DNA of 64,000 nt from a virus, in the IMG/VR virus record IMGVR_UViG_3300021088_000009. One strand, written 5' to 3'. Positions 4,792 to 41,605 of the stretch are shown one piece after another. Under the pieces are notes generated by a model. The model was not told the origin of the DNA and did no database searches. It worked only from the letters and a program-made list of their open reading frames with translations. Every line of letters starts with the position of its first letter. Within the stretch, counting starts at the first letter, position 1. The position numbers and the translations under genes were made by a program.

Positions 4792-4828
4792 CTGTGGTGT
4801 TGACAGAGACCACCGCCAAGGAGTGACC

Positions 4829-5823: not shown

Positions 5824-6001
5824 GGACAAGTCGATCCGGACCATGCTGATCAAGATGGGGTGGAGGGTGGGGAGCGCGATCACGTTCGCCCAGGGGCACG
5901 CGATCATCGCGAAGGGCACGTGCCCGGGTTGCCAGCAGCGGTGGAGCAAGACGCACCGTAAGTGTGTCCCGGGCCTGTTCCCAAGCGAGACCGGCAAGTG
6001 A
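5801..6001 (+). CDS. hypothetical Cys-containing small protein
   Basis: GAGAGGAA RBS, ATG start. 66 aa. Carries the motif CPGCQ...HRKC. Confidence 0.5.
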   Translation: MPRIFDPKDKSIRTMLIKMGWRVGSAITFAQGHAIIAKGTCPGCQQRWSKTHRKCVPGLFPSETGK

Positions 6002-6014
6002 GGAAGTGAGCACG

Positions 6015-6908
6015 ATGGACACCGAGGAAGCCCTTCAGGTCGCCGACAAGGCAGCGGACCGGAGCACCCCGGCGGCGGACACTCCGTCGCTGGTCAACAT
6101 GATCTACGCCTTGGAGATCCTGGCGGACGGCTACCGTGTCGCGAACCAGAAGGCGCGGGCATGGGAGCTGTCTTCGACTCACGCGCATGATCAGTTGGCG
6201 CTGAAGTTGCGTCAGTCGAAGGACGACCGTCAGCGACTCGATCAGCGTCTGGAACAGATCAACAGCGAAATTGAGTCCTTGAACGACGAGTTGGACCACA
6301 CGCAAGGCTGCTGGTCGGATCTGATGGAGTTCATCCGGACCGCCCTCGGGTTGGATGAGCGGGCTTTGGATGACACCGTTGACGTGCGTCGGATCCTCGG
6401 TCGTGCCCTGGCGGACGCCCGTCTGTTCGCTCAGGTTCGGGACCTGGTCAACGGTGACTTTCGTGCCAGGTTCGCCCAGGGCGACACGGTGACCATCAAC
6501 GATTTCAACAACCCGGCCACGCCAGGGCACACCACGCGTGTGGCGGATGGTCACGTCTGGATGGCCCCGGTCGGGACCGACCCGAAGGACCAGGGCAAGT
6601 GGACTCACGTGGGATTCGCCCAGGGGGCCATGTGGAACGCGACGTTCCCGAAGTTGGCGGACCTGTTGGATCCCGCGACGGCGGACGCGTTCGCGTCTCC
6701 GGCGGTCCAGGAGTTCCCGGCGGGTGCGCCGGATCCGGACGCGCGGGTGACGCGTGTTCGACGGGTTGGGGGTAGCACGGAGTTCGTTCGTGCCGGCCGC
6801 TTGTCCACGGGCGGGAGTCTGTGGACCGGTGTCGACATGCCGGGGGGCGTGTTCCATCCGTGGTCCGCCATCGTCAAGTGGCGTCCGGTGGTGGAGGTGC
6901 GGGAGTGA
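6015..6908 (+). CDS. hypothetical protein with coiled-coil region
   Basis: GAGGAAG RBS, ATG start. 297 aa. Confidence 0.65.
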   Translation: MDTEEALQVADKAADRSTPAADTPSLVNMIYALEILADGYRVANQKARAWELSSTHAHDQLALKLRQSKDDRQRLDQRLEQINSEIESLNDELDHTQGCWSDLMEFIRTALGLDERALDDTVDVRRILGRALADARLFAQVRDLVNGDFRARFAQGDTVTINDFNNPATPGHTTRVADGHVWMAPVGTDPKDQGKWTHVGFAQGAMWNATFPKLADLLDPATADAFASPAVQEFPAGAPDPDARVTRVRRVGGSTEFVRAGRLSTGGSLWTGVDMPGGVFHPWSAIVKWRPVVEVRE

Positions 6909-7207
6909 ACGCGGATGACCATGAGGCGCAGCGGGAGGCGTTGGCGGCCGCGATCCACAAGCGGATGCGGTCCAGCTATATCGGCGCACCGCCCCCGTTG
7001 CTTCGTGGCGACGCGGAACGCGCGGTGTGGGCTGTCATCCATGAGGGGTGGAGCCCGCCCGTCTCGGAAGAGTTGATCGACCACGTGTGGGGCAAGGCGC
7101 ACGCGTTGGAGATGGAGTGTCAGGGGTGGGCGCGGATTCAGCGCGGCGACGTGGAGTGGATCTTGGCGGAGGCGGCGAAGGGTGTGCCGCCGGAAGGTGA
7201 GGAGTAG
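6905..7207 (+). CDS. hypothetical protein
   Basis: GTGA start/stop overlap with the upstream gene. 100 aa. Confidence 0.5.
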   Translation: MNADDHEAQREALAAAIHKRMRSSYIGAPPPLLRGDAERAVWAVIHEGWSPPVSEELIDHVWGKAHALEMECQGWARIQRGDVEWILAEAAKGVPPEGEE

Positions 7208-14678: not shown

Positions 14679-14750
14679 GCACCCTTAGCTCAGCGGGAGA
14701 GCGGCTCTCTTACAAAGAGCGGGTCGGGAGTTCAATTCTCTCAGGGTGTA
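14679..14750 (+). tRNA. tRNA-Val(TAC)
   Basis: Manual fold. Acceptor stem gcaccct/agggtgt. Anticodon loop CTTACAA. T-loop TTCAATT. No encoded CCA. Confidence 0.7.
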
Positions 14751-14934
14751 CAAGGGGCCGACGTGATGCATGATGCGCGTCAACCATCACGTCGGTTCCG
14801 ATCCACAACTCCATGTTCTTGCGGTGCGGGCGTCAACGTCACCGAACCGGGTCATGGTGACCGGGGAGGATCGAAGATGCGGAGCGTTTACAAGCTTTGG
14901 CGCTGTGAAGTGTCTGCGCCCGCATCGCATACCT

Positions 14935-15007
14935 GGGCCTGTAGCTCATCTGGAAGAGCACCTGTTTTGCACACAGGGGGTGGCGGGTTCAAGTCCTGTC
15001 AGGTCCA
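14935..15007 (+). tRNA. tRNA-Ala(TGC)
   Basis: G3:U70 identity pair is present. Anticodon loop TTTGCAC. T-loop TTCAAGT. Confidence 0.75.
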
Positions 15008-15193
15008 CAACCGGGCGACCGGGATCTAACTGAATGAACTTCCATCAGCTGGTCAGTACACCTCGTAAGTCCTGCCTTGGTAGGCAAGCGGGTTAGGGCC
15101 AGCCACGCGGAAGGTGGGAGTGCAGGCCATCGGCTGAGGGCATGCGCACGAGCGAGGTCGGTGGGGACCAGACTCCAGACAACAACTCCATAT

Positions 15194-15266
15194 GCCACTG
15201 TAGCTCAGTCGGAAGAGCGCCTTACTTGTAATAAGGATGTCGCGGGTTCGAATCCTGTCTGTGGCT
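15194..15266 (+). tRNA. tRNA-Thr(TGT)
   Basis: D-arm TAGCTCAGTCGGAAGAGC. Anticodon loop CTTGTAA. One acceptor-stem mismatch at 6:67. Confidence 0.65.
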
Positions 15267-15288
15267 CGTTATACAACTACAACTACAT

Positions 15289-15359
15289 TGCCCGCTCGTT
15301 CAACGGCAGGACACCGGACTCTGACTCCGGGGATCTAGGTTCGAATCCTGGGTGGGCAG
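15289..15359 (+). tRNA. tRNA-Gln(CTG)
   Basis: U1:A72 pair. Anticodon loop CTCTGAC. T-loop TTCGAAT. Confidence 0.65.
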
Positions 15360-15397
15360 CGTTTGACAGTCTCGGTAGAGCATGGTAGCTTTAATCC

Positions 15398-15787
15398 ATG
15401 CCGCTAGCGGACAAGGAAAAGTACAATAACTACATGCGCGACTACATGAAACGCAGGTATCACCAGCGACGCGCAGAGGCAATCCAGCTTCTGGGCTCCC
15501 GGTGCGTTCAGTGTGGTACGACAGAAAACCTTGAAACCGATCACGTTGATCGGACAACTAAATCGTTTGATCTTGGCAAGCTTTGGTCAGTTGCTCGACA
15601 CCTTTACTTGGAAGAGTTGAAGAAGTGTCAACTACTGTGCGAGGATTGCCATAGGCGGAAATCTGCTTCCGAAATGTCGGTGTCTCACGGAGGCGGTATT
15701 TCCGGCAAGAAGAATTGCAAGTGTGAGCCTTGTCGGATCAAAAAGAGGGCTTACATGCGTAATTATAGGCGAGGGTCGGTATCCTAG
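15398..15787 (+). CDS. HNH endonuclease
   Basis: 129 aa. HNH motif elements CVQCG...ETDHV...CEDCHRRK. AT-richer codon usage than its surroundings. The 3' end overlaps the tRNA-Lys(TTT) gene. Start codon uncertain. Confidence 0.75.
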   Translation: MPLADKEKYNNYMRDYMKRRYHQRRAEAIQLLGSRCVQCGTTENLETDHVDRTTKSFDLGKLWSVARHLYLEELKKCQLLCEDCHRRKSASEMSVSHGGGISGKKNCKCEPCRIKKRAYMRNYRRGSVS

Positions 15788-15847
15788 TCTGGTTAAGGAA
15801 ACGAACTTTTAATTCGTGCGCCGTGGGTTCAAATCCCACCCGGCCTA
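15773..15847 (+). tRNA. tRNA-Lys(TTT)
   Basis: Anticodon loop CTTTTAA. T-loop TTCAAAT. Acceptor stem has two G-U pairs. Confidence 0.65.
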
Positions 15848-15852
15848 CTTGG

Positions 15853-15924
15853 TTCCCGTTGCTCTAATCGGCAAGAGACTGGATTTTGGTTCCGGGGATC
15901 TAGGTTCGAATCCTAGACGGGAAG
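15853..15924 (+). tRNA. tRNA-Gln(TTG)
   Basis: Perfect acceptor stem ttcccgt/acgggaa with U1:A72. Anticodon loop TTTTGGT. Confidence 0.65.
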
Positions 15925-15950
15925 CGTTAGTTCTACACCTACAACTACAT

Positions 15951-16025
15951 GCGCCGTTAGCTCAGGCCGGTCAGAGCTGGATACTCTTACTATTCAGGTC
16001 GGGGGTTCGAATCCCTCACGGCGTA
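15951..16025 (+). tRNA. tRNA-Lys(CTT)
   Basis: D-arm TAGCTCAGGCCGGTCAGAGC. Anticodon loop CTCTTAC. T-loop TTCGAAT. Confidence 0.65.
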
Positions 16026-16123
16026 CGTCACAGCCGGTTCGGCGGCTGCCCGTGGCCAACAGTTGCGACAGAGTGACATGGGGAAACGACAGTGGTATGA
16101 CGTCTACTGCCTAGTCCGAACAT

Positions 16124-16196
16124 GGGTCGGTAGCTCAGATGGTAGAGCACTCCCCTGAAAAGGGAGGGGCCGGTGGTTCGAGTCCACTCCTTCCCA
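16124..16196 (+). tRNA. tRNA-Phe(GAA), acceptor stem imperfect
   Basis: Anticodon stem-loop ctccc CTGAAAA gggag. T-loop TTCGAGT. Two acceptor-stem mismatches, so it may be a pseudogene. Confidence 0.5.
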
Positions 16197-16216
16197 CGCA
16201 CCACACACAATTACAT

Positions 16217-16291
16217 TGCGCGGTAACTCAGTCTGGTAAGAGTGCCGATCTGATACATCGGTGGCCCGTGGTTCAAATCCACGCCGCGCAA
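16217..16291 (+). tRNA. tRNA-Ile(GAT)
   Basis: Acceptor stem tgcgcgg/ccgcgca. Anticodon loop CTGATAC. T-loop TTCAAAT. Confidence 0.65.
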
Positions 16292-16399
16292 CGGGGACAC
16301 TGGAGAAATCGTCCATCCGGGCTTTAGTACCCGGTGTCCTACCAACTGAATGCCCTTGACTGCGGCGACTGTCTTTGACAACTCCATGAACACCTCGCG

Positions 16400-16445
16400 A
16401 TGCGAAGGATCGGGTTACTTCCGCTTCCATGTTAGCGGACTAGCT
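16400..16445 (+). repeat. tRNA-derived degenerate repeat (GATGCG...GGGTTACTTC family), copy A
   Basis: cgcgatgcgaaggatcGGGTTACTTCcgc. Related copies lie at 14585-14665, 16545-16665, 17180-17290 and 17295-17345. Confidence 0.5.
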
Positions 16446-16508
16446 CAATTGGTAGAGCGCCCCCCGATGAGGGGGGAGGTTCCGGGTTCGAGTCCCGGGT
16501 CTCATACC
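16434..16508 (+). pseudogene. tRNA-like pseudogene (anticodon arm CCCCCC-GATGAG-GGGGGG, acceptor stem unpaired)
   Basis: D-arm TAGCTCAATTGGTAGAGC and T-loop GGTTCGAGTCC are intact, but the anticodon loop is aberrant and the acceptor stem does not pair. Confidence 0.35.
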
Positions 16509-16544
16509 TGATTCGCCCGGTTCTCGTGAGGTCTCAAAGTTTTG

Positions 16545-16665
16545 AACGCCGTGTGATGCGTAGGAATGGGTTACTTCAAACTGAACATTTGGCGATCCGA
16601 GTTCGACTCTCGGCGGCTCCACTCGTGGGGCCGTGTGTGGACATAGTTTAACCTGGTCCGCTTGG
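16545..16665 (+). repeat. tRNA-derived degenerate repeat, copy B (orphan T-arm/acceptor GAGTTCGACTCTCGGCGGCTCCA)
   Basis: gtgtgatgcgtaggaatGGGTTACTTCaaactgaa...cgcttGGTTCTCacacgg. No matching 5' acceptor half. Confidence 0.5.
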
Positions 16666-16680
16666 TTCTCACACGGTTAA

Positions 16681-16752
16681 GCCGACGTAGCGCAGTGGTA
16701 GCGCAACACCTTGTCAGGGTGAAGGTCGCGGGTTCGACCCCCGTCGTTGGCG
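16681..16752 (+). tRNA. tRNA-Asp(GTC)
   Basis: Acceptor stem gccgacg/cgttggc. Anticodon loop TTGTCAG. T-loop TTCGACC. Confidence 0.7.
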
Positions 16753-16753
16753 C

Positions 16754-16942
16754 GTGCGTGTAACCACAATCGTGAATCCCGACAGCGGAGACGTTCGACT
16801 GATGTTGGACGGCAACCTGGTCGTGGAACTTCGCGGGGGCAACCCCGCCGGCCTGCTCCGGGAACTGGGCACAGCCATCAAGGACAGCGCCCGTGATGTT
16901 GAGCGGGTACGCACAAGGTTGGGTTACTCGAACAGGGGGTGA
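16754..16942 (+). CDS. hypothetical 62-aa protein embedded in the tRNA array
   Basis: ORF with GTG start immediately after tRNA-Asp. Decent GC3. Confidence 0.35.
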   Translation: MRVTTIVNPDSGDVRLMLDGNLVVELRGGNPAGLLRELGTAIKDSARDVERVRTRLGYSNRG

Positions 16943-16947
16943 CAAGC

Positions 16948-17106
16948 ATGGCGCATTCACCACACAAGCGGTGGAAAGGGTGCGCCATGTGCAAGGCGCA
17001 CAAGTTCAAGGACAACGGTCGTAGTGAGCGGGACCCGTTCCGTTACCTGCGGTTCGTGGGCAAGAGACGCCGGGTCAGTCGTCATGACCTGGGCGACCGG
17101 GTGTAG
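16948..17106 (+). CDS. hypothetical 52-aa basic Cys-containing peptide
   Basis: ATG start. Translation MAHSPHKRWKGCAMCKAHKFKDNGRSERDPFRYLRFVGKRRRVSRHDLGDRV. Its end overlaps the tRNA-Pro 5' end. Confidence 0.35.
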   Translation: MAHSPHKRWKGCAMCKAHKFKDNGRSERDPFRYLRFVGKRRRVSRHDLGDRV

Positions 17107-17173
17107 CTCAGTCAGGATAAAGAGTGCCTGTTTTGGGTACAGGATGCCGGGGGTTCGAATCCCTCCACCCGGA
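17097..17173 (+). tRNA. tRNA-Pro(TGG)
   Basis: Perfect acceptor stem ccgggtg/cacccgg. Anticodon loop TTTGGGT. T-loop TTCGAAT. Confidence 0.7.
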
Positions 17174-17179
17174 CTGGTT

Positions 17180-17400
17180 TCGATGCGCAGAGTTGGGTTA
17201 CTTCACAGGTTCGATTCCTCACGCCCCCACCCCTCGGGGGCGGCCACATGGGTGGTTTGTTCCTGGCTCGCTTGGTTCTCGAAACCTTTCAACGCGTGTG
17301 GTTCTGATGCGTAGACGCGGGATACTTCACTTAATCTGTGGGTTGCGGGTTCGAGTCCCGTCACCCCGCTTCAGGGGTGTAGCTCAAGTGGCAGAGCAAT
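17180..17400 (+). repeat. tRNA-derived degenerate repeats, copies C/D with orphan T-arms and an orphan 5' tRNA half (AGGGGTGTAGCTCAAGTGGCAGAGC)
   Basis: Two GATGCG..GGGTTACTTCA units. Orphan T-arms CAGGTTCGATTCC and GCGGGTTCGAGTCCCGTCACCCCGC. The 5' half is not followed by an anticodon arm. Confidence 0.5.
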
Positions 17401-17607
17401 AGAAGCAAGATACCTGTGTCGACTCGGTTCTCAGAACCACCTAGGATTCCCTTCGCGGGGAATGAGATGAGTGTATGGCCGTTGACTCTGAACAGTCGGC
17501 CACGGCGTACGCTGCGAAGTAGGCAAACGTAAGCCCTTATCCGGGTGCTGATACACTCGACAAGGCAATCGTAAGCCCTACGTTTGCACGTGGCGTGCGC
17601 CAACTAG

Positions 17608-17682
17608 AGCGGGGTGGCGCAATTCGGTTAGCGCGAGGGCCTCATAAGCCTTAGGTTGCCGGTTCAAATCCGGTCCCCGCCA
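17608..17682 (+). tRNA. tRNA-Met(CAT), initiator-like 1:72 mismatch
   Basis: Anticodon loop CTCATAA. T-loop TTCAAAT. A1·C72 mismatch, with the other six acceptor-stem pairs G-C. Confidence 0.6.
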
Positions 17683-17878
17683 CTAGAGGGGTAATGCTGG
17701 TTCAAATCCAGTCGGTGAAAACCTTCGGGTGATTAGCTGTCGGCTAATGGTAAGCCGCCTCTCGTTTTACCATCCGGCATGTTGGCCCGAGTGTCGGAGT
17801 TCGACCCCTAAGTGTGCGCACACAGGACGCGTCCCGTAATCACGGCACACGTGACGTTCATCGGGCTTCCACAATCAA

Positions 17879-17951
17879 TGGCCTATAGCTTAACTGGCAG
17901 AGCGGTGGATTGTTACTCCATCAGATCTTGGTTCGAATCCAAGTAGGTCAG
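17879..17951 (+). tRNA. tRNA-Asn(GTT)
   Basis: Acceptor stem tggccta/taggtca. Anticodon loop TTGTTAC. T-loop TTCGAAT. Confidence 0.65.
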
Positions 17952-18078
17952 CGTAGAATCCGTCAGCTTCCGGAGGTGTGACGGCTAGCTACCCAAGACC
18001 CACGCGGTCGACAACGGTACGGGGGTCGCTCCCCCTTGAAAAGGCCGGTGTCGTCATTGCCTCTCTGTCTTGGTCAAT

Positions 18079-18149
18079 GCGGGTGTAGTTTAATGGTAGA
18101 ACTAGTGCCTTCCAAGCAACAGGCCGGGGTTCGATTCCCCGTACCCGCT
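18079..18149 (+). tRNA. tRNA-Gly(TCC)
   Basis: T4-like D-loop TTTAATGGTAG. Anticodon loop CTTCCAA. T-loop TTCGATT. Anticodon stem is weak. Confidence 0.55.
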
Positions 18150-18213
18150 CTAGGCCCGCCAGCGGGTCTTCGTGCCCCCCGCTTACTGTGGCGGTGGTTG
18201 GGGGCACACCAAT

Positions 18214-18297
18214 GGAGGGTAGCGTCCGATGGTGGACATCCCGCCTCGAAAGCGGGTGCCGGGGGCAACCCCGAGGGTTCGACTCCTTTACCTTCCG
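18214..18297 (+). tRNA. tRNA-Ser(CGA)
   Basis: Perfect anticodon stem cccgc/gcggg with loop CTCGAAA. Long variable arm ccggggGCAAccccg. T-loop TTCGACT. Confidence 0.65.
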
Positions 18298-18605
18298 CGC
18301 CGGGGACCGTCATAAATTGTCAAGGCCCAGTGTCCCGCGATACCCAAGGGACCAGTTTCGATGCGGCTGCGACGGTAAGCACGGATAAGCTGTGAACCCA
18401 AATATCCGAACCTAGGCGGAATGGGTGAGCTGAAACGGGTCGCGTACGGGCCCGCCCCCGCACCACTTCGTGTGAATATGCTCTGGGTCCCGAGGGCCTT
18501 AACTGGTCGGGATACAACACTTGCTAGTAGCACAGCATGCCCCCATGGCCATGGGGGAGTCTGGGCGGGGAAGTAACCGGTCGCCCGGAGTCCACACACG
18601 AAAAT

Positions 18606-18690
18606 GGAAGATTGCCAGAGTCTGGCCGATTGGGCGTCACTGCTAATGACGTGGGCCTCGGTCCCAAGGGTTCGAATCCCTTATCTTCCG
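18606..18690 (+). tRNA. tRNA-Ser(GCT)
   Basis: Perfect acceptor stem ggaagat/atcttcc. Anticodon stem-loop cgtca CTGCTAA tgacg. Long variable arm. T-loop TTCGAAT. Confidence 0.7.
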
Positions 18691-18691
18691 C

Positions 18692-18835
18692 GTGACCGAA
18701 GAGAAGAAGGTCAGAACGTCCGGGGGTGTTCCACTCACGGACGAGTTGCTGGACAAGTTGGCGGAGGAAGCTGAAGCCGGATACGATCCGGCCAAGTTGA
18801 AGCCGCGTAAGAAGAACACCGAAAAGAAGAAGTAA
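18692..18835 (+). CDS. hypothetical 47-aa protein (motif SGGVPLTDELLDKLAEEAEAGYD, RHH/antitoxin-like)
   Basis: GTG start 2 nt after tRNA-Ser. Lys-rich C-terminus. The motif resembles small actinobacterial RHH/antitoxin-like proteins, but that is an inference. Confidence 0.45.
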   Translation: MTEEKKVRTSGGVPLTDELLDKLAEEAEAGYDPAKLKPRKKNTEKKK

Positions 18836-18909
18836 CCCTCTCTAGCTCAACAGGACAGAGCGCCCCATTCCTAACGGGTAGGTTCGGGGTTCGATTCCCC
18901 GGAGGGGGA
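18836..18909 (+). tRNA. tRNA-Arg(CCT)
   Basis: C1:G72 pair. Anticodon loop TTCCTAA. T-loop TTCGATT. Same body as the neighbouring Arg(CCG). Anticodon stem has two mismatches. Confidence 0.5.
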
Positions 18910-18915
18910 CGTTAA

Positions 18916-18989
18916 CCCGCTTTAGCTCAATAGGACAGAGCACCGGTTTCCGAAGCCGGAGGTTCAGGGTTCGATTCCCTGGAGTGGGA
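18916..18989 (+). tRNA. tRNA-Arg(CCG)
   Basis: Perfect anticodon stem ccggt/gccgg with loop TTCCGAA. T-loop TTCGATT. Confidence 0.65.
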
Positions 18990-18990
18990 C

Positions 18991-19067
18991 GGTGGCTGTC
19001 GCCCAATTGGCCGGGAGCCAGATTGTGAGTCTGGATGATGCGGGTTCGAGTCCCGTCAGTCACCCCA
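18991..19067 (+). tRNA. tRNA-His(GTG) with encoded G-1 and 3' CCA
   Basis: Extra 5' G precedes acceptor stem gtggctg/cagtcac. Discriminator C. CCA is encoded. Anticodon stem-loop ccaga TTGTGAG tctgg. Confidence 0.75.
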
Positions 19068-19083
19068 AACTTAAGGAAATAAC

Positions 19084-19347
19084 GTGACTGAGCGCGCGGA
19101 GTTTCCACACTGCGACATGCGTATCTTGCACGCTCCGGGTGAGTGCGAGTATTGCGAAGAATATTCGGACTGGCAGGATCTGCGGAAGCGGTGGGGTATT
19201 GCCTTTACCGGGCATGAACCGCAAGAAGTACGTGTGTCGGGTACGCTGATCGCACGGGAGCTTCCGTGTCCAGCCGATTTCAACCGGCCGCCGTCCAGTT
19301 CCTCGGATCACCGTCAGTGGCCTGGTAACACGCCGGAAGGGTACTGA
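19084..19347 (+). CDS. hypothetical Cys-rich protein embedded in the tRNA array
   Basis: AAGGAAAT RBS followed by a GTG start. 87 aa. Carries the motifs HCDMRILHAPGECEYCEE. Confidence 0.5.
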   Translation: MTERAEFPHCDMRILHAPGECEYCEEYSDWQDLRKRWGIAFTGHEPQEVRVSGTLIARELPCPADFNRPPSSSSDHRQWPGNTPEGY

Positions 19348-19351
19348 CTAA

Positions 19352-19425
19352 GCCCTGGTAGCTCAGCTGGATAGAGTGCCACGCTACGAACGTGGAAGTC
19401 GGGGGTTCAAGTCCCTCTCAGGGTA
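19352..19425 (+). tRNA. tRNA-Arg(ACG)
   Basis: D-arm TAGCTCAGCTGGATAGAGT. Anticodon stem-loop ccacg CTACGAA cgtgg. T-loop TTCAAGT. Confidence 0.7.
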
Positions 19426-19572
19426 CGTTGCACACCGTTCGTTCTTTCGCAAGAAGATCCCGGTACGTGGTTTCCGATGTAGCCAACGACACTCAGACTG
19501 TCGCTCTGGCGGTTACCACCCCTTGACGGAGAGGGACCCGAGTGAAGTCCGTCGTCCGGTGTGCACACCTAC

Positions 19573-19645
19573 GGCGCATTAGTTCAATTGGCGGAACGTC
19601 CGGTTCTCAGCCGGGAGGTTGTGGGTTCGAGTCCCACATGCGCTA
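19573..19645 (+). tRNA. tRNA-Glu(CTC)
   Basis: Acceptor stem ggcgcat/atgcgct. Anticodon stem-loop tccgg TTCTCAG ccggg. T-loop TTCGAGT. Confidence 0.65.
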
Positions 19646-19788
19646 CGTATCGGCTAGTGGGATAGCCCCGTAGGATCGCAACCCACGGGCTAGACGCAGA
19701 GGTGACGGCCACCTGGGAGTCCCTGGGCTGTCTCTCGCTGGTGAACGGTCAGGGACTCCCGACCGGACACCGGGAAGCTATCCATCAT

Positions 19789-19862
19789 GGTCCCTTAGCC
19801 CAATGGCAGGAGGCACTCCGCTCAAAACGGGGACAGTGTGCGTTCGAATCGCACAGGGACTA
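19789..19862 (+). tRNA. class-I tRNA with anticodon CAA (Leu anticodon on a Gln/Glu-type body, short variable arm)
   Basis: Acceptor stem ggtccct/agggact. D-arm gcc-CAATGGCAGGA-ggc. Anticodon stem-loop ctccg CTCAAAA cgggg. Variable region is only 5 nt. T-loop TTCGAAT. Confidence 0.55.
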
Positions 19863-19875
19863 CGCAGTGCAGTAT

Positions 19876-19948
19876 GGCCCGTTGGAGTAATAGGAAGCTC
19901 ACCTGACTTTCATTCAGGAGTGTGCGGGTTCGAGCCCCGTACGGGCTA
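19876..19948 (+). tRNA. tRNA-Glu(TTC)
   Basis: Perfect anticodon stem cctga/tcagg with loop CTTTCAT. T-loop TTCGAGC. Confidence 0.65.
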
Positions 19949-20051
19949 CGTCTACCGGTTAAATGAATTGAATCAGCCTTCGGGTGCCGGGACTGTGAAG
20001 CGGGGAGCGTGGGAGGGTCCGCCGTGCCGACTAGGGATGAGGTCGGCCCAT

Positions 20052-20123
20052 TCCGTACAGCGTTGGTTGTGCCGGCGGGCCTGTAAAGCCCTCCCGTGTG
20101 TGGTTCGAATCCACCGTGCGGAA
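20052..20123 (+). tRNA. possible tRNA-Tyr(GTA), class-I-like
   Basis: Acceptor stem tccgtac/gtgcgga. Anticodon loop CTGTAAA. T-loop TTCGAAT. Short variable region and weak D-arm. Confidence 0.4.
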
Positions 20124-20219
20124 CGATCACCGGGGTTAATCAGGGTGTCCCTGGTGATTGCGGTGAGACAAGTAGGAACGGCGCAGTAAGCGCGGGTGTT
20201 GTGGTAGCGCCCGCGTCAT

Positions 20220-20295
20220 GCTCCCTTAGCCCAACTTTGGCAGAGGCGTCCGGTTCAGGTCCGGGAGGTTGAGAGTTCGAATCTCTCAGGGAGTA
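20220..20295 (+). tRNA. class-I tRNA with anticodon CAG (Leu anticodon, short variable arm)
   Basis: Acceptor stem gctccct/agggagt. Anticodon stem-loop tccgg TTCAGGT ccggg. Variable region AGGTT. T-loop TTCGAAT. Confidence 0.55.
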
Positions 20296-20305
20296 CGTTT
20301 GTTAT

Positions 20306-20380
20306 GCACCTATAGCCCAACCAGGCAGAGGCGTCACCTTGAGGTGGTGGAGGTTCCGGGTTCGAATCCCGGTAGGTGTA
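20306..20380 (+). tRNA. class-I tRNA with anticodon GAG (Leu anticodon, short variable arm)
   Basis: Acceptor stem gcaccta/taggtgt. Anticodon stem-loop tcacc TTGAGGT ggtgg. Variable region AGGTT. T-loop TTCGAAT. Confidence 0.55.
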
Positions 20381-20507
20381 CTGGGCGCGGTACCTTTCTC
20401 TCCGGTGCCAGGTTGCGAAAAGCCGCGCCCTCCTTTCTCGTTCCGGAGCCATCGGATGAGAAACGGCGTCCGTGCCCTGTTGGCTTGATGGGGGGCACGG
20501 GCGTTAT

Positions 20508-20578
20508 GGCGGATTGACCGAGAGGCTAGGTGGCAGCCTGCAAAGCTGCTCACGGGAGTTCGAGTCTCCCATTCGCCT
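20508..20578 (+). tRNA. tRNA-Cys(GCA)
   Basis: Acceptor stem ggcggat/attcgcc. Perfect anticodon stem gcagc/gctgc with loop CTGCAAA. T-loop TTCGAGT. Confidence 0.6.
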
Positions 20579-20640
20579 CGGAAGTGCTGTAGGCCATTCG
20601 CTTCGGGGATCCTAGGAACCCTCGCGCGATGGGGAAGCAC

Positions 20641-21155: not shown

Positions 21156-22907
21156 ATGTCGAAGTTCAACCAGAAGACGCCCGACGTGTTCGGCCGTGTC
21201 GGCGCGGGAGCGGGATCCTCCCCGATCGTCGTGGACCGGCGCGCGTCGGCACGCACTTTCGAGGGTGCGCCGTCGTTCGCGCGGTCCGACCGTGGCCAGC
21301 TGTTCCTCACGTGCACGGCCGGGTTCATCGCCGAGGACAAGTTCTACGAGACCGGCGACGCCACGGTGAACCGGGTGCGGGAGTTGACCGCATCCATCGC
21401 GACCGAGACCCGACCGCGTCAGAAGCTGGCCGGCGCGTTCACGGGGAAGTCCGTGGACGTCAAGACCGGCCGTGTGCATTCCGATGACATCGACACCGGC
21501 GCGGCATGGTTGACGCCGTTCATCAACTGGGCCCGGCGCGTCGGCAACGTGCGCACCGCGCCCATCGTCGTCGCCTGCGAGGCGGTGCACGCACGGTTGA
21601 AGGCCGGCATCAACGGCGGCAACCGCGAGATGCTCCGCGCACCGCTGGCCCGGGCCGACGAGCCGGGCGAGATGGTCGCGTACTGGCGGGCCCGGTTCGG
21701 CCGCGCGATCCCCATGTGCATGAAGCGCGCCATCGGGGACGTGCTCCCGCAGTTGTACACGGAGTACTCGGCGTTGAAGTACGACACCGCCGCGCATGCG
21801 GTGCGGTTCGGTGACGTCGTGGACATCGTCCACCCGACCGACGCGGCGACCCCGGCACGGAACGCGTTCTACCGGTGGCTGATGGACCGCCGTCACCGGC
21901 GGGACAACGCGACCGCCAGCGCGGCTGGTCACCTCCCGATGATCGTCGCCCGTGCCCAGTTGGAGACGATCCCGGTCGCGGACCGGCGTGCCCTGGTGGG
22001 TTCGGCTGACCTGGACACGTGGATGCGGAACGCGGGCATGACGTGGGAGTCGCTGTCCGGGTGGCTGTCGGACGGTGGCGGCATGGACGCGGCCGCGTGG
22101 GAGGCCATCATCCCGAACATGGGATACATGGCGTTGTTGCGGAACCTCCGCAACTTTGACCAGGCCGGCGTGTCCGATGAGGTCGCCGGGCTGATTGCGA
22201 CGAAGCTCGCTAACCCGGGCGAGGTGGCGCGGTGCAAGCAATTCCCGTTCCGGTTCCTGTCCGCGTTGCGTCAGGTGCCGTCGTTGCGGTGGGGTCACGC
22301 GCTGGACAAGGCGTTGACGTTGTCCACGGGGAACGTGCCGGTGCTGGACGGGCGGACGTTGATCCTGGTGGACACGTCGGGGTCGATGGGCAACCCGATG
22401 TCGGGGAAGTCGAACGTGTCCTGTGTGGACGCGGCCACGGTGTTCGGTGTGGCGTTGGCGTTCCGGAATCGGGGGAACGTGGACCTGGCGGGGTGGGCTA
22501 CGGGCACGTATGAGCAGACCATCACGCGGGGTGGGTCGCTGATCAGCGAGGTGAAGAAGTTCACCGAGCGCGCCGGGTCGGTGGGTCACGGGACGGATCT
22601 GGGTCAGGCGTTGGCGAAGACGTTCCGGCGTGGGGAGCACGCGCGGGTGTTCGTGTTCTCGGACATGCAGTTGATGGGATCGAGCTGGTACGGCGGCGCG
22701 GATGCGGTCAACCGGTATGTGCCGGCGGAGGTGCCGGTGTACTCGTGGAACCTGATGGGGTACGCGGGTGCGATGACGGCGGGCACGAACCGGCATGAGC
22801 TGGGCGGCCTGACGGACGCGACGTTCCGTCTGGTGCCGACGATCGAGGCGGCGCAGACCGGGGTGTGGCCGTGGGAGTTGGACGCGGCGGAGGTGTTGTC
22901 GCGGTAG
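21156..22907 (+). CDS. rsr: Ro60-like TROVE-domain protein with C-terminal vWA/MIDAS domain (Rsr orthologue)
   Basis: 583 aa. GAAGGAGGG RBS. N-terminal TROVE-like region. C-terminal MIDAS motif in LILVDTSGSMGNP. This domain order is characteristic of Ro60/Rsr. Confidence 0.7.
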   Translation: MSKFNQKTPDVFGRVGAGAGSSPIVVDRRASARTFEGAPSFARSDRGQLFLTCTAGFIAEDKFYETGDATVNRVRELTASIATETRPRQKLAGAFTGKSVDVKTGRVHSDDIDTGAAWLTPFINWARRVGNVRTAPIVVACEAVHARLKAGINGGNREMLRAPLARADEPGEMVAYWRARFGRAIPMCMKRAIGDVLPQLYTEYSALKYDTAAHAVRFGDVVDIVHPTDAATPARNAFYRWLMDRRHRRDNATASAAGHLPMIVARAQLETIPVADRRALVGSADLDTWMRNAGMTWESLSGWLSDGGGMDAAAWEAIIPNMGYMALLRNLRNFDQAGVSDEVAGLIATKLANPGEVARCKQFPFRFLSALRQVPSLRWGHALDKALTLSTGNVPVLDGRTLILVDTSGSMGNPMSGKSNVSCVDAATVFGVALAFRNRGNVDLAGWATGTYEQTITRGGSLISEVKKFTERAGSVGHGTDLGQALAKTFRRGEHARVFVFSDMQLMGSSWYGGADAVNRYVPAEVPVYSWNLMGYAGAMTAGTNRHELGGLTDATFRLVPTIEAAQTGVWPWELDAAEVLSR

Positions 22908-39154: not shown

Positions 39155-39487
39155 ATGGCCAGCAAGACCATGGTGGAACTGATCGACGACATCACCGGGG
39201 AACCGGCCGATGAGTCCGTCACCTTCGGCCTGGACAACATCACGTACACGATCGACCTGAGCGCCGACAACGCCAAGGAACTCCGCGACCGTCTCGCCGC
39301 GTTCATCGAGTCCGCACAGCGCGTGAAGGCCGTCAAGGGCGGCACCAAGCGCGCCGCCGGCATGACCCGGGACCAGAACCGCGCCATCCGCGACTGGGCA
39401 CGCGGCCAGGGCGAGACGGTGAGCGAACGCGGCCGGATCCCGGCGGAACTGATCGTCCGTTTCCAGGAAGCGCACGCCAGCGCCTGA
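39155..39487 (+). CDS. lsr2: Lsr2-like nucleoid-associated DNA-binding protein
   Basis: 110 aa. TAGGAGAT RBS. C-terminal Lsr2 DNA-binding motif RGRIPAELIVRFQEAH. N-terminal dimerisation-like region. Confidence 0.7.
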   Translation: MASKTMVELIDDITGEPADESVTFGLDNITYTIDLSADNAKELRDRLAAFIESAQRVKAVKGGTKRAAGMTRDQNRAIRDWARGQGETVSERGRIPAELIVRFQEAHASA

Positions 39488-39515: not shown

Positions 39516-40247
39516 ATGACCAGTCTTCACCAGATCCTCGCGGCCGAGAAGGGCGTCAAGGGCCGCACAGCACGCACGTTCACCGACGCCCACCACGCCG
39601 TGGCCAAGACGGCGCTGCTGTCCGGCATCACCCGCACCTACCAGCCGAACGACGACGACGGGGAGCGGTTGCCGTCGGAGTCCACCCCCGTCCAGATCAA
39701 CGCCCGTGACGCCATCGCCGAGGTCACGACCGCGTTGACTGAGCTGTTCGACGTGGTGATCACCAAGGACGCGGCGAACCAGGTCGCTTCGGCGGACCTG
39801 AGGGTGAACGGGAGCGTGCTGGTCCCCGACGTTCCCGTGACGACGTTGCTGTTCCTGGAGAAGCAACTGATCGACATCTACACGTTCGTGCGGAAGCTGC
39901 CCGTTCTGGACCCGGCGGAGCAGTGGCATCTGGATGAGCAGCGTGGCCACTACGCGACCGCGCCTGTGCAGACAGCGCGGTCCAAGAAGATCATGAAGAC
40001 GCACATCGCGTACCCGGCGACCACGGAGCACCCGGCGCAGACCCAGACGTACGGGGAGGACATTCAGGTGGGGCTGTGGACCACGCTGAAGTTCTCCGGC
40101 GCGCTCCCGGCCGCGCGGGTCGCGGAGCTGACGGCCCGTGTGGTGACGCTTCAGAAGGCGGTCACGGCGGCCCGGCAGGCGGCGAACAGCATGGAGATCG
40201 CGGACCGCCGGATGGGTGACGTGGTCCTGGGCTACCTGTTCGCGTAG
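39516..40247 (+). CDS. hypothetical protein
   Basis: AAGGAGAA RBS, ATG start. 243 aa. Confidence 0.7.
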   Translation: MTSLHQILAAEKGVKGRTARTFTDAHHAVAKTALLSGITRTYQPNDDDGERLPSESTPVQINARDAIAEVTTALTELFDVVITKDAANQVASADLRVNGSVLVPDVPVTTLLFLEKQLIDIYTFVRKLPVLDPAEQWHLDEQRGHYATAPVQTARSKKIMKTHIAYPATTEHPAQTQTYGEDIQVGLWTTLKFSGALPAARVAELTARVVTLQKAVTAARQAANSMEIADRRMGDVVLGYLFA

Positions 40248-40264
40248 CAGGCCAGCACGAACGG

Positions 40265-40300
40265 AAAGCCCCCTCCCGGCCGGAGGGGGCTTTCTTGTGG
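40265..40300 (+). terminator. rho-independent terminator (end of rightward arm)
   Basis: Stem aaagccccctccgg/ccggagggggcttt followed by CTTGTGG. Confidence 0.7.
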
Positions 40301-40415
40301 GTTGTCATCCCTTGTGCTAGGGTGGTGGTACCCGCTGAGCGGCGGGCTAACCAAACTGAATCTCACGATCAAGTTCGTCGTTATCAACGCGGCACAGTGG
40401 TGGTTCGACTCCATC

Positions 40416-40566
40416 CCGTGGCTCCAACCATGCCACGGTAGCCCAAGGGCAGAGGCACCGCGACGTCAACTTATTGCTCAAGATTCAGCATCGCACCGAA
40501 CACCAGGTCAACCGCCAGGGGCGAAGATAGTTGAGATTGCCGGTTCGAATCCGGCCCGTGGCTCCA
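40416..40566 (+). ncRNA. tandem tRNA-like modules with encoded CCA (two identical 3' ends cccgtggcTCCA, two 5' starts gccacggTAGC)
   Basis: T-arms ggtggTTCGACTccatc and gccggTTCGAATccggc are each followed by ccgtggc-T-CCA. The complementary 5' acceptor gccacgg follows each. The complete middle copy (40432-40566) carries a roughly 75-nt insertion. Confidence 0.4.
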
Positions 40567-40726
40567 AACCATGCCACGGTAGCGTAATGGCAACGCGCAA
40601 CGTCCTTCAAGAATGACCCCGACGCTTAAACGTACTGGTGTGCGCAATTCGGTGACGCCTAGGACTAAAAATCCTTACAGCATCTGGCCCGGTCGAGTGG
40701 ATACCTCGGCCGGGCCTCCTTATACC

Positions 40727-40773
40727 CCCAGAACGCAGAAAAGCCCCCCGCCGGGGAATCCCGGCGGGGGGCT
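40727..40773 (-). terminator. rho-independent terminator for the leftward late operon
   Basis: Stem aagccccccgccggg/cccggcggggggctt. On the minus strand it is followed by TTTTCTGCG. Confidence 0.7.
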
Positions 40774-40794
40774 TCACTGAACCTCAACTGAACT

Positions 40795-41091
40795 TCACTC
40801 CGCGATCATGGACTGTGCGCCCGTCGCCGGCCGCACATAGGTCGCCGTGGCCGGGTGACCCAACAGAACCGCCGCCAACCACGACGGCAACGCGCCCTCC
40901 GCCGCGTTGAACGCCAGCTTCCACGCCGCGACCGCAACCGGCACCAGAATGGACAGGCCCACGCCGTTCAGGCCATCCGCGAGCCCCGACAGCGCCGGGA
41001 TCCGCGTCACCACCCACGCCACCGCCACACCCCACAACGCCGGCACGACCGTACGCAGCCACGCAATCACCTTGTCGGACACAGGGGTCAC
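40795..41091 (-). CDS. membrane protein (holin-like, 3 TM)
   Basis: GTG start within a GTGTGA overlap with the upstream gene. 98 aa. Hydrophobic helices. Lies in the lysis cassette. Confidence 0.5.
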   Translation of the reverse strand: MTPVSDKVIAWLRTVVPALWGVAVAWVVTRIPALSGLADGLNGVGLSILVPVAVAAWKLAFNAAEGALPSWLAAVLLGHPATATYVRPATGAQSMIAE

Positions 41092-41237
41092 ACTCCCATC
41101 GGGATGAGCAGAGCGGCCACACCGAACAGCACGGCCGAGACAACCGCGAGAACCACGCCGGGGCGGCCCCCGATCAGGATCGCCAACGCGGCGCACAGAC
41201 CAGCCAGCGGCACCATCAACGCACGCAACAGGGTCAC
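41088..41237 (-). CDS. 49-aa membrane protein (holin-like)
   Basis: GGAGGGGA RBS followed by a GTG start. Translation VTLLRALMVPLAGLCAALAILIGG... has two TM helices. Confidence 0.5.
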   Translation of the reverse strand: MTLLRALMVPLAGLCAALAILIGGRPGVVLAVVSAVLFGVAALLIPMGV

Positions 41238-41605
41238 GATGCCGCGTCCCCTCCGGCCGCCTGAACGGCCTTGTCCAGCGCCGTGTAGGCGGCGGTGTTC
41301 GTGGCGTGCGGGGCACCTTCCGGCCAGTGCCAGGTACCGCCCATCTTCTCCGTCTCGTCGTGCCGGATCGGCACGCCGCCGGAGTTGAAGAACACGCCGG
41401 TCGGGTTCCACACCGCCAGGGCGCACGTCTCCCGCTCGAACTGCTGGGTGAGCACCCGCGTGTTCGGGTCCGGTGACGTCGAGTCCACCGTCACCCACTG
41501 CCCCGCTTCGGTGATGATCGCCGCCCGGCACAACGACGCGTACTCGCCGTTGGGGGTGCCGTAGCTGACGTAGTGGACGTTGCGGCCCACGGTCGGCTCT
41601 GTCAT
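41234..41605 (-). CDS. hypothetical protein
   Basis: AGGAGG RBS, ATG start. 123 aa. Confidence 0.65.
   Translation of the reverse strand: MTEPTVGRNVHYVSYGTPNGEYASLCRAAIITEAGQWVTVDSTSPDPNTRVLTQQFERETCALAVWNPTGVFFNSGGVPIRHDETEKMGGTWHWPEGAPHATNTAAYTALDKAVQAAGGDAAS

What the first reader, a model, noticed from the sequence alone, without database searches (positions are those of the whole stretch)
40300..40740. Tandem tRNA-like modules with encoded CCA at the convergent junction between the early and late arms
Between the two convergent terminators are two T-arm plus acceptor 3' ends with CCA (GGTTCGACTCCATCCCGTGGCTCCA ending at 40426, and GGTTCGAATCCGGCCCGTGGCTCCA ending at 40566). Each is followed 5 nt later by the complementary 5' start GCCACGGTAGC (40432 and 40574). 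The middle unit (40432-40566) has a matching acceptor stem gccacgg/ccgtggc and a Gln-like D-arm GCCCAAGGGCAGAGGC. It also carries a roughly 75-nt insertion where the anticodon, variable and T-arm junction should be. The third unit has only a 5' half. Possible explanations include a tRNA with an unusual insertion or intron, a duplicated attP-like tRNA 3' segment, or a tRNA-like sRNA.
Basis: seen in the sequence. Interest (0 to 1): 0.65.

Follow-up and report, generated by a model that had tools for sequence, protein, structure and literature searches.

The report
tRNA-mimic RNA pair linked to DUF7873
The two "tRNA-like modules" are real: they are a conserved pair of structured tRNA-mimicking noncoding RNAs of the bacterial Y-RNA (YrlA) type, which in hundreds of phages and bacteria always sit directly behind one uncharacterised protein gene (DUF7873) rather than beside their usual partner Ro, pointing to an RNA-protein pairing not mentioned in the literature I could search.

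Summary
The quoted sequences are present at the stated coordinates (one start is off by 1 nt). The conserved units are centred on the two "junctions". Each is a circularly permuted tRNA-like domain (T-arm, 7-bp acceptor helix closed by a short loop, U-A, D-arm) on a long basal stem, the architecture of bacterial YrlA Y RNAs. M1 is 40346-40495, M2 is 40487-40650, and a third conserved hairpin (H3) is 40686-40716.

Covariation is very strong: M2 is 96.7% paired with 29/31 covarying pairs, M1 is 93.8% with 20/22, and 0/500 shuffles reach either.

The RNAs are tightly coupled to the upstream gene DUF7873 (39516-40247). 88 of 100 perfect M1 modules have it upstream (0 of 101 controls), and 79 of 80 protein-anchored loci carry the RNA. 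TROVE/Ro is usually absent from these loci, though this phage encodes one 17 kb away with a better classical YrlA candidate beside it.

An encoded NCCA follows the acceptor helix in about 40% of family members, which suggests RNase P processing as in M. smegmatis YrlA. DUF7873 has no informative homologue. Verdict: a new variant of a known RNA kind with a candidate new protein partner.

The parts
39516..40247 (+). DUF7873 protein gene (243 aa), the conserved upstream partner of the RNAs
   Evidence: Pfam PF25283, E 1.2e-98. 2,910 homologues. Directly upstream, same strand, of 88/100 perfect M1 modules versus 0/101 controls. 79/80 protein-anchored loci carry the RNA downstream. AF2 model pLDDT 88.5 has no informative structural relative.
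40263..40296 (+). Strong hairpin followed by UUUCUUGUG between the DUF7873 stop codon and M1 (terminator-like; specific to this lineage)
   Evidence: -28.3 kcal/mol, z -3.9. Also present in close relative L012. Not a general family feature: 0/46 loci have a T-run after a hairpin here, and the median gap is only 41 nt.
40346..40495 (+). M1: first permuted tRNA-like RNA module. Basal stem 40356-40363 / 40481-40488; T-arm 40399-40415; acceptor 3' strand 40416-40422; UCCA 40423-40426; loop 40427-40431; acceptor 5' strand 40432-40438; UA; D-arm 40441-40456
   Evidence: R2 hit 137.6 bits. Fold z -3.13. Covariation: 7 sequences 94.8% paired; 68 distinct sequences 93.8% paired, 20/22 pairs with double changes, 0/500 shuffles. 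Rfam YrlA 17.2 bits.
40487..40650 (+). M2: second permuted tRNA-like module, the more YrlA-like of the two. Outer stem 40500-40506 / 40635-40641; conserved 5' motif GGUCAACCG 40506-40514; T-arm 40539-40555; acceptor 3' strand 40556-40562; UCCA 40563-40566; loop 40567-40572; acceptor 5' strand 40573-40579; UA; D-arm 40582-40596; conserved 3' motif CUUAAACGU 40625-40633
   Evidence: R1 hit 156.5 bits. Rfam YrlA full-length alignment 31.4 bits, E 6.8e-5. Covariation: 8 sequences 96.0% paired, 24/31 pairs; 82 distinct sequences 96.7% paired, 29/31 pairs, 0/500 shuffles. Fold z -2.33.
40686..40716 (+). H3: 12-bp terminal hairpin with conserved 7-nt loop UGGAUAC (40698-40704); probable 3' end of the RNA
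   Evidence: -27.5 kcal/mol, z -4.38. A strong hairpin at a fixed offset (about 117 nt after the second T-loop) in 78/78 distinct loci, loop consensus YGGNYAY.
21156..22907 (+). Ro60/Rsr-like protein (TROVE + vWA), context only: a possible but unproven second partner, 17.4 kb upstream on the same strand
   Evidence: PF05731 8.4e-16 plus VWA_2. phrog_850 RNA-binding protein. Best phage relatives are annotated 'Ro-like RNA binding protein'.

Best explanation
Shown: 40346-40716 encodes a three-part structured noncoding RNA on the + strand. It has two tandem tRNA-mimic modules (M1, M2) followed by a long hairpin (H3). Each module is a circularly permuted tRNA-like domain: T-arm, then a 7-bp acceptor helix closed by a loop, then U8-A9 and a D-arm. 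This domain sits on a long basal stem formed by the module's own 5' and 3' flanks and takes the place of the anticodon arm. That is the architecture of bacterial YrlA-type Y RNAs. The RNA forms a conserved, self-contained cassette with the upstream gene DUF7873. The cassette occurs in many phages (hosts in Actinobacteria, Proteobacteria and Cyanobacteria) and in bacterial chromosomes.

Inferred: the RNA is co-transcribed as a 3' extension of the DUF7873 message, because the family-wide gap is only about 41 nt. In members with an encoded NCCA, such as this one, RNase P cuts 5' of G40432 and G40573 and the 3' sides are trimmed to CCA. This is what was shown experimentally for M. smegmatis YrlA. 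The pieces stay held together by the acceptor and basal helices and display true tRNA-like acceptor ends.

Inferred further: DUF7873 binds the conserved asymmetric internal loop of the M2 basal stem (RRUCRACYG opposite CUUAAACGU) and forms an RNP. In that RNP the tRNA-like elbows engage, or act as decoys for, host tRNA-handling factors during infection. This would be analogous to Ro-Y RNA particles but would not require Ro.
For: Architecture and Rfam YrlA full-length matches. Covariation in every helix with shuffle and slide controls. Thermodynamics.

RNA-to-protein coupling: 88/100 perfect modules have DUF7873 upstream versus 0/101 controls. Protein-to-RNA coupling: 79/80 loci, and it still holds at about 30% protein identity in Klebsiella, Ralstonia, Vibrio, Rhizobium and cyanobacterial phages. 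No other conserved neighbouring gene. The second T-loop lies 91 nt (interquartile range 91-93) after M1 in 83/83 loci. H3 is present in 78/78 loci.

NCCA enrichment: 22/53 and 19/49 modules. Precedent for RNase P cleavage plus CCA addition on a 7-bp YrlA acceptor stem, and for tandem YrlA/YrlB processed from one precursor: PMC4201824. Short gap and no terminator or promoter between the gene and M1.

Independence from Ro: TROVE lies within only 2 of 125 module loci. Racecar, Phendrix, Fryberger and NiceHouse are absent from the strong TROVE hits. The sister phages Racecar (DUF7873 + M1/M2, no Ro) and Atuin (Ro + generic modules, no DUF7873) are compared.
Against: There is no expression, processing or binding data. 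Both Rfam YrlA scores (31.4 and 17.2 bits) are well below the gathering score of 69. DUF7873 has pI 6.4 and no recognisable RNA-binding fold. Conserved synteny alone does not prove physical binding.

About 60% of family members lack the encoded CCA, and some close the acceptor helix with long structured loops, so RNase P cleavage cannot be the general mechanism. In this window a strong terminator-like hairpin separates the gene from M1, so co-transcription here may be only partial. The phage also encodes Ro, which could be the real binding partner here.
Confidence: 0.6

Rival explanations
1. They are ordinary Ro-dependent Y RNAs (a YrlA/YrlB pair) that bind the phage's own Ro60-like protein. 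DUF7873 is merely a neighbour, or an accessory or effector tethered by the Y RNA.
For: Full-length Rfam YrlA alignments. The phage encodes TROVE + vWA on the same strand. Rhizobium phages carry both DUF7873 + module and TROVE + modules within 6 kb. In known systems Y RNAs tether Ro to another protein (PMC4201824, PMC12135203), so DUF7873 could be that effector.
Against: The RNAs lie 17.4 kb from the Ro gene, whereas classical YrlA lies within 4 kb. A better YrlA candidate (17315-17422, 46.1 bits) lies 3.7 kb upstream of Ro. TROVE is found in only 2 of 125 module loci. Several phages with the cassette show no TROVE by tblastn. Racecar lacks Ro at the position where its sister phage Atuin has it. 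The GNCGAA motif present in the window (40520-40526) is not conserved across the family.
Confidence: 0.2
2. The RNA acts in cis or as an antidote for DUF7873. It could be a 3'-UTR tRNA-like element that sets the mRNA 3' end and stabilises the message, or the antitoxin RNA of a type-III-like toxin-antitoxin or abortive-infection pair.
For: Self-contained two-component mobile cassette with no other conserved neighbour. The RNA immediately follows the gene (median gap 41 nt). Occurrence at prophage ends and in phages.
Against: No PADLOC or PHROGs hit. The protein is unusually conserved (55-60% identity between phage and chromosomal copies), unlike fast-evolving defence genes. The RNA is two different tRNA-like modules plus a hairpin rather than identical short tandem repeats. 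The gene order is the reverse of ToxIN-type loci (my own knowledge).
Confidence: 0.14
3. The middle unit (40432-40566) is a tRNA gene carrying a roughly 75-nt insertion or intron.
For: RF00005 gives 33 bits (above its gathering score of 29) at 40432-40563 in the local scan. It has a perfect 7-bp acceptor stem, a T-arm and CCA.
Against: That alignment skips the D-stem and the whole anticodon arm. ARAGORN finds no tRNA here. Fold z is -0.91. The cross-module acceptor pairing is 7/7 only in this window among 49 loci and otherwise equals the null. Covariation supports the junction hairpins and module-specific basal stems.
Confidence: 0.02
4. It is a permuted (two-piece) tmRNA gene, or a duplicated attP-like tRNA 3' fragment.
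For: Permuted tmRNA genes also place T-arm + acceptor 3' strand + CCA upstream of the 5' acceptor strand (my own knowledge). tRNA 3' ends are common att cores.
Against: No tmRNA call by ARAGORN and no tmRNA-family hit in 40200-40800 at E<=10. The modules have canonical D-arms and basal stems with no room for a tag reading frame. Both acceptor strands are present and covary. The element is conserved behind DUF7873 in lytic phages and in chromosomes. No integrase was found in the tested ORFs.
Confidence: 0.02

Closest known systems
YrlA-type bacterial Y RNAs (Rfam RF02553; Chen et al. 2014, PMC4201824), especially M. smegmatis YrlA/YrlB
   Same: Permuted order T-arm, acceptor-like stem-loop, D-arm on a basal stem made of the RNA's 5' and 3' ends. 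tRNA-like T-loop and D-loop nucleotides. Two tandem RNAs from one locus. A 7-bp acceptor helix, which in M. smegmatis is cut by RNase P and receives CCA. Occurrence in phages within or next to tRNA arrays.
   Different: Scores 31 and 17 bits, below the family's gathering score of 69. Not adjacent to Ro (17 kb away here, absent from most loci). The constant neighbour is DUF7873. The conserved 5' motif is RRUCRACYG rather than GNCGAAN0-1G. CCA is fully encoded here rather than added. The RNA is a fixed three-part unit (M1, then 91 nt, then M2, then a hairpin with a YGGNYAY loop).
Phage Ro60-Yrl RNPs (mycobacteriophages; Thermus phage phiLo, PMC12135203)
   Same: Phage-encoded Y-like RNAs, presumed to form an RNP that exploits host RNA-metabolism enzymes. 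This window's phage also encodes a Ro60-like protein.
   Different: In those systems the RNAs lie just upstream of the Ro gene and binding to Ro was shown. Here the linkage is to a different, uncharacterised protein and no binding is shown.
Permuted (two-piece) tmRNA and other tRNA mimics
   Same: Circular permutation of a tRNA-like domain with an encoded CCA, and dependence on RNase P-type processing.
   Different: No tag ORF and no pseudoknots. A canonical D-arm is present. No tmRNA model or ARAGORN hit.

Membership tests
YrlA (bacterial Y RNA-like, RF02553) | Permuted tRNA-like domain: T stem-loop, then an acceptor-like stem-loop, then a D stem-loop | tested here: met
   Rfam alignment. Covariation in the T, acceptor and D helices.
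YrlA (bacterial Y RNA-like, RF02553) | Basal helix formed by the 5' and 3' ends, with an internal loop (the Ro-binding region) | tested here: met
   M2 helices 1-4 covary (14 of 15 pairs with double changes). Conserved internal-loop motifs appear on both strands. The M1 outer stem is weaker (78% paired).
YrlA (bacterial Y RNA-like, RF02553) | GNCGAAN0-1G motif near the 5' end | tested here: inconclusive
   The window has GGCGAAG at 40520-40526, but that column block is not conserved in homologues. The conserved motif is RRUCRACYG (40506-40514), which only partly resembles it.
YrlA (bacterial Y RNA-like, RF02553) | Encoded within about 4 kb of a Ro60/TROVE gene on the same strand | tested here: not met
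   17.4 kb from the TROVE gene in the window. TROVE is present in 2 of 125 module loci. Absent from several cassette-bearing phages.
YrlA (bacterial Y RNA-like, RF02553) | Reaches the Rfam gathering score (69 bits) | tested here: not met
   31.4 bits (M2) and 17.2 bits (M1). No hit at gathering thresholds.
YrlA (bacterial Y RNA-like, RF02553) | Bound by Ro60/Rsr in vivo | not testable with these tools
   Needs immunoprecipitation or EMSA.
tRNA (RF00005) | Cloverleaf with an anticodon arm; detected by tRNA finders | tested here: not met
   ARAGORN finds none here. The RF00005 hit skips the D-stem and anticodon arm. The cross-module acceptor helix is not conserved.
Permuted tmRNA (RF04321 / ARAGORN) | tRNA-like domain plus a tag-peptide reading frame and pseudoknots | tested here: not met
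   No ARAGORN tmRNA. No tmRNA-family hit in 40200-40800 at E<=10.
DUF7873 (PF25283) | Full-length match above the Pfam cut-off | tested here: met
   330 bits versus a cut-off of 27, residues 1-242 of 243.
Type III toxin-antitoxin (ToxIN-like) | Endoribonuclease toxin with a known fold/model, plus an array of identical short RNA repeats | tested here: not met
   No PADLOC hit. The RNA is two distinct modules of about 150 nt plus a hairpin.

The most novel reading that the evidence does not exclude
DUF7873 and the bipartite tRNA-mimic RNA (M1-M2-H3) form a previously unrecognised, widespread ribonucleoprotein that does not depend on Ro. It would be a second family of 'Y-like' RNPs shared by bacteria and their phages. 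Its RNA is matured by the tRNA-processing machinery (RNase P, CCA end), and it acts on or decoys tRNA-handling factors during infection or stress.
Probability: 0.45. Interest if true: 0.85.

Novelty: new variant of a known kind. Interest (0 to 1): 0.72.

Why it matters
Y RNAs have been understood only as partners of Ro60, and searches for bacterial and phage Y RNAs were restricted to genomes that encode Ro. Here a YrlA-like tRNA-mimic RNA is locked in a gene-RNA cassette with a different, highly conserved protein of unknown function (about 2,900 homologues). This holds across phages of at least three bacterial phyla and in actinobacterial chromosomes.

The result gives DUF7873 its first functional lead. 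It defines a new structured RNA with very strong covariation support that is absent from Rfam as its own family. It also offers a tractable system: SEA-PHAGES isolates such as Racecar, Phendrix and Fryberger, and Streptomyces/Kitasatospora strains. That system could address what the tRNA-like domain of Y-type RNAs is for. It could also test whether phages use such RNAs to manipulate tRNA processing, RNA repair or anti-tRNA defences. In addition, it would improve annotation of the 400-500-nt "empty" gaps in many actinophage genomes.

Tried and rejected
- ARAGORN and Rfam at gathering thresholds found nothing at the locus.
- Megablast of 20 kb of the window against INPHARED found no match, so the phage itself is unidentified. 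An identical DUF7873 protein sits on a 67,340-bp metagenomic contig.
- The search for related loci with the single protein in viral contigs failed. The alignment-based scan worked.
- A literature search for DUF7873 returned zero papers. Two Y-RNA reviews were not held.
- My first cross-pairing script had a 1-nt register error and was redone.
- My early impression that M1 always carries NCCA came from a small sample and from a search pattern that required CCA. The unbiased figure is 42%.
- The 36 modules without DUF7873 were examined. They are mostly Nostoc tRNA arrays or tandem copies of one tRNA.
- A dedicated promoter (TTGTGG-N17-TAGGGT, 40295-40323) is visible in the window and in L012 but shows no family-wide signal, so I do not claim it.

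Full report
**Observation.** The window is a 64% GC phage-like sequence. It has a + strand arm of replication and RNA-metabolism genes: SNF2 helicase, Rv2179c-like exoribonuclease, 27 tRNAs at 14679-20579, a TROVE + vWA Ro-like protein at 21156-22907, an RNase T-like exonuclease, a PD-(D/E)XK nuclease, a UvrD helicase, Lsr2 and DUF7873. It has a - strand arm of portal, capsid, tape-measure, tail and GH25 lysis genes. The 500-nt gap between the arms, 40248-40743, is bounded by terminator-like hairpins on opposite strands. The only error is that the second GCCACGG starts at 40573, not 40574. ARAGORN and Rfam at gathering cut-offs call nothing in the gap.

**Re-phasing the units.** A permissive Rfam scan aligned the YrlA model (RF02553, bacterial Y RNA-like) end to end at 40505-40622 (31.4 bits, E 6.8e-5) and weakly at 40366-40483 (17.2 bits). 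In that reading each unit has a T-arm, a 7-bp acceptor helix closed by a short loop, U-A and a D-arm, all on a long basal stem formed by the unit's own flanks. That is a circularly permuted tRNA-like domain.

**Relatives.** The phage has no close relative in INPHARED. Three 194-kb Arthrobacter phages (Racecar, Mimi, Talia1610) match the M1 core at 80% identity, in an unannotated gap. Racecar has the same two modules with compensatory changes in the acceptor helix (GCCACGG/CCGTGGC in the window, GCCGGGG/CCCCGGC in Racecar), and Rfam YrlA hits both. In both phages the gene immediately upstream is DUF7873 (PF25283).

tblastn with that protein found 75 phage records. Every locus fetched had a gap of 340-700 nt with no annotated gene larger than a small ORF directly behind the gene. 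The modules are present in:
- Phendrix, Fryberger and NiceHouse;
- Rhizobium phage RHph_Y65;
- Klebsiella jumbo phage KpLz-2_45, Ralstonia phiRSL1, Vibrio K479 and cyanophage PA-SR01;
- a metagenomic close relative, L012;
- a Kitasatospora chromosome;
- a Kutzneria prophage.

Only the Microcoleus phage gave no hit.

**Structure.** MAFFT alignments of 7 M1 and 8 M2 sequences gave RNAalifold structures with 22 and 31 pairs.

| Alignment | Cells paired | Paired when 3' partners slid | Pairs with double changes | Shuffles reaching observed covariation score |
|---|---|---|---|---|
| M2, 8 sequences | 96.0% | 33-47% | 24/31 | 0/500 |
| M1, 7 sequences | 94.8% | 35-50% | 10/22 | 0/500 |
| M2, 82 distinct sequences | 96.7% | 34-48% | 29/31 | 0/500 |
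| M1, 68 distinct sequences | 93.8% | 37-51% | 20/22 | 0/500 |

The two larger alignments were made with covariance models built from the small ones, so they lean somewhat towards the model structure. The small MAFFT alignments are independent of it. The 7-bp acceptor helices are 99.6-99.8% paired, with all seven pairs covarying.

In the window the single-sequence folds agree. M1 has z -3.13, M2 has z -2.33 and H3 has z -4.38.

**Testing the "middle tRNA".** In the window the M1 and M2 acceptor helices are identical, so the M1 5' strand can pair with the M2 3' strand. Across 49 distinct loci this cross pairing is 7/7 only in the window. Its distribution matches a shuffled-locus null. Each module's own helix is 7/7 in 49/49 (M1) and 46/49 (M2) loci. 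The middle-unit reading is therefore a peculiarity of this lineage and not the conserved structure.

**Architecture of the locus.**
- A second T-loop lies 91 nt (interquartile range 91-93) after M1 in 83/83 loci that have enough downstream sequence.
- Full-length M2 is found in 85/89 loci.
- A strong hairpin (median -29.5 kcal/mol) with a 7-nt loop of consensus YGGNYAY follows at a fixed offset in 78/78 distinct loci. In the window it is 40686-40716 with loop UGGAUAC.
- The M2 basal stem carries conserved sequence on both sides of an asymmetric internal loop: RRUCRACYG (40506-40514) and CUUAAACGU (40625-40633). This is the signature expected of a protein-binding site.

**Coupling to DUF7873.** Of about 250 matches, 100 have a perfect 7/7 acceptor helix and 25 have 6/7. 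The rest are adjacent ordinary tRNAs.

Among the 125 matches with 6/7 or 7/7, 89 have DUF7873 directly upstream on the same strand (median 106 nt to the T-loop). None of 101 non-complementary controls does. TROVE lies within only 2 of these loci. Among the perfect 7/7 modules, 88 have DUF7873 and 12 do not. The cases without DUF7873 are largely Nostoc tRNA arrays, tandem copies of one tRNA, or contig edges.

In the reverse direction, 80 viral loci were collected by protein profile alone (43-58% identity). Of these, 79 have a model hit just downstream on the same strand. No other neighbouring gene recurs in more than 17 of 124 loci. The gap from the DUF7873 stop codon to M1 is short (median 41 nt), with no T-run terminators and no consistent promoter. 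Co-transcription is therefore the likely rule. The window and L012 have an additional strong hairpin there.

**Relation to Ro.** The window phage does encode a Ro60-like protein. A better classical YrlA candidate lies at 17315-17422 (46.1 bits, E 1e-8), with further permuted tRNA-like units around it. These sit in gaps of the tRNA array, 3.4-4.6 kb upstream of the Ro gene on the same strand. That is the arrangement Chen et al. described for phage YrlA. Nothing YrlA-like is adjacent to Ro itself.

The cassette-bearing phages Racecar, Phendrix, GodonK, Fryberger, Ronaldo and NiceHouse are not among the strong TROVE hits. The syntenic sister phages make a natural experiment:
- Atuin has tRNA-Gly, Ro-like, tRNA-Thr, three generic modules, then tRNA-Phe, and no DUF7873.
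- Racecar has tRNA-Gly, tRNA-Thr and tRNA-Phe contiguous, with no Ro, and carries DUF7873 + M1/M2 further downstream.

Atuin's modules match only the tRNA-like core of my models. Rhizobium phage RHph_Y65 has both kinds of locus.

**The CCA.** In M. smegmatis, YrlA has a 7-bp acceptor stem and is cut by RNase P in vivo and in vitro. Its 5' half acquires CCA, both halves remain bound to Rsr, and YrlA and YrlB come from one precursor (PMC4201824). The window's modules have 7-bp acceptor plus 5-bp T helices, a discriminator base and an encoded CCA, followed 5-6 nt later by G1 of the 5' strand. This is what an RNase P substrate looks like.

In unbiased samples NCCA follows the helix in 22/53 M1 and 19/49 M2 modules, where about 1.6% is expected by chance. 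Other members have N-C-U, or long structured loops. Cleavage is therefore plausible for this subfamily but cannot be universal.

**The protein.** DUF7873 has 2,910 homologues. They are 55-60% identical between this phage and actinobacterial chromosomes, and many polar residues are invariant. The AF2 model is confident (pLDDT 88.5, pTM 0.72). It shows a helical bundle with an inserted beta-sheet domain. No sequence or fold search gave an informative relative. Its pI is 6.4. No paper in the searchable library mentions it, and Y-like RNAs in phages are described only together with Ro60.

**Conclusion.** The finding is a real, strongly supported structured RNA locus. It is best classed as a YrlA-like tRNA-mimic RNA, so the kind is known. 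What is new is a fixed bipartite-plus-hairpin architecture and a constant genetic partner, DUF7873 instead of Ro. What the RNP does is inferred, not shown.

Noticed in passing
window 16540-16680, 17180-17290, 17300-17440, 17690-17780: Unannotated gaps of the 27-tRNA array hold further permuted tRNA-like units. They share a 5' motif GATGCGYAG..GGGWTACTTCA and a 3' motif CGCTTGGTTCTC. The unit at 17315-17422 is the best Rfam YrlA match in the window (46.1 bits, E 1e-8). They lie 3.4-4.6 kb upstream of the Ro-like gene on the same strand and are probably the Ro-partner Y RNAs proper.
   Followed up: partly
window 21156-22907: A Ro60/Rsr-like protein (TROVE + vWA with a DxSxS MIDAS-like motif) lies directly after the tRNA array. 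Its closest phage relative is Arthrobacter phage Atuin gp111, at 38.6% identity.
   Followed up: partly
window 40416-40438 versus 40556-40579: The M1 and M2 acceptor helices are identical in sequence (GCCACGG/CCGTGGC) in this window only, among 49 distinct loci. This allows alternative cross-module pairing and suggests recent gene conversion or a lineage-specific constraint.
   Followed up: partly
window 16434-16508: ARAGORN calls a tRNA-His with the unusual anticodon ATG. Its Rfam tRNA score is low (39.9 bits), with mismatches in the acceptor stem.
   Followed up: no
L003 (Gordonia phage Phendrix) 1072-1600: A full-length tmRNA (RF00023, 89 bits, E 3e-33) lies in a stretch with no annotated feature, between tRNA-Asn and tRNA-Arg.
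   Followed up: no
L002 (Arthrobacter phage Atuin) 11898-12334: Three tandem permuted tRNA-like modules lie in an unannotated gap just downstream of the Ro-like gene and tRNA-Thr. They are likely unannotated Y RNAs.
   Followed up: partly
L001 (Racecar) 4588-4653 and L004 (Fryberger) 3895-3950: Additional isolated T-arm-like elements sit near the cassette: GGAGGTTCGAATCCTTC in Racecar (weak tRNA hit, 21.4 bits) and GGGGTTCGATTCCCC in Fryberger.
   Followed up: no
window 39155-39487; also L012 and L013: An Lsr2-like nucleoid-associated protein gene lies immediately upstream of DUF7873 in this phage and its close metagenomic relatives.
   Followed up: no
window 41234-41605 (- strand): A small protein gives a weak, sub-threshold match to the anti-CBASS Acb1 family (E 4.7e-4, 20.3 bits against a cut-off of 27) and a match to phrog_2293.
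   Followed up: no
BFVD entry A0A7M1RW91 (uncultured crAss-like phage cr118_1): This is the only structural match to the DUF7873 model with a high Foldseek probability (0.99; TM 0.45/0.59, although E is 0.04). crAss-like phages also encode TROVE proteins.
   Followed up: no
L006 (Pseudanabaena phage PA-SR01) 5763-5942: A sub-threshold permuted-tmRNA hit (31.9 bits against a gathering score of 47) lies about 2 kb downstream of the DUF7873 cassette.
   Followed up: no
L008 (Kitasatospora sp. CMC57 chromosome) 3998-7120: The chromosomal DUF7873 + M1/M2/H3 cassette lies next to a queuosine-synthesis (QueA-family) gene, with no prophage genes within 6 kb. In Kutzneria the cassette abuts a large serine recombinase.
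   Followed up: partly
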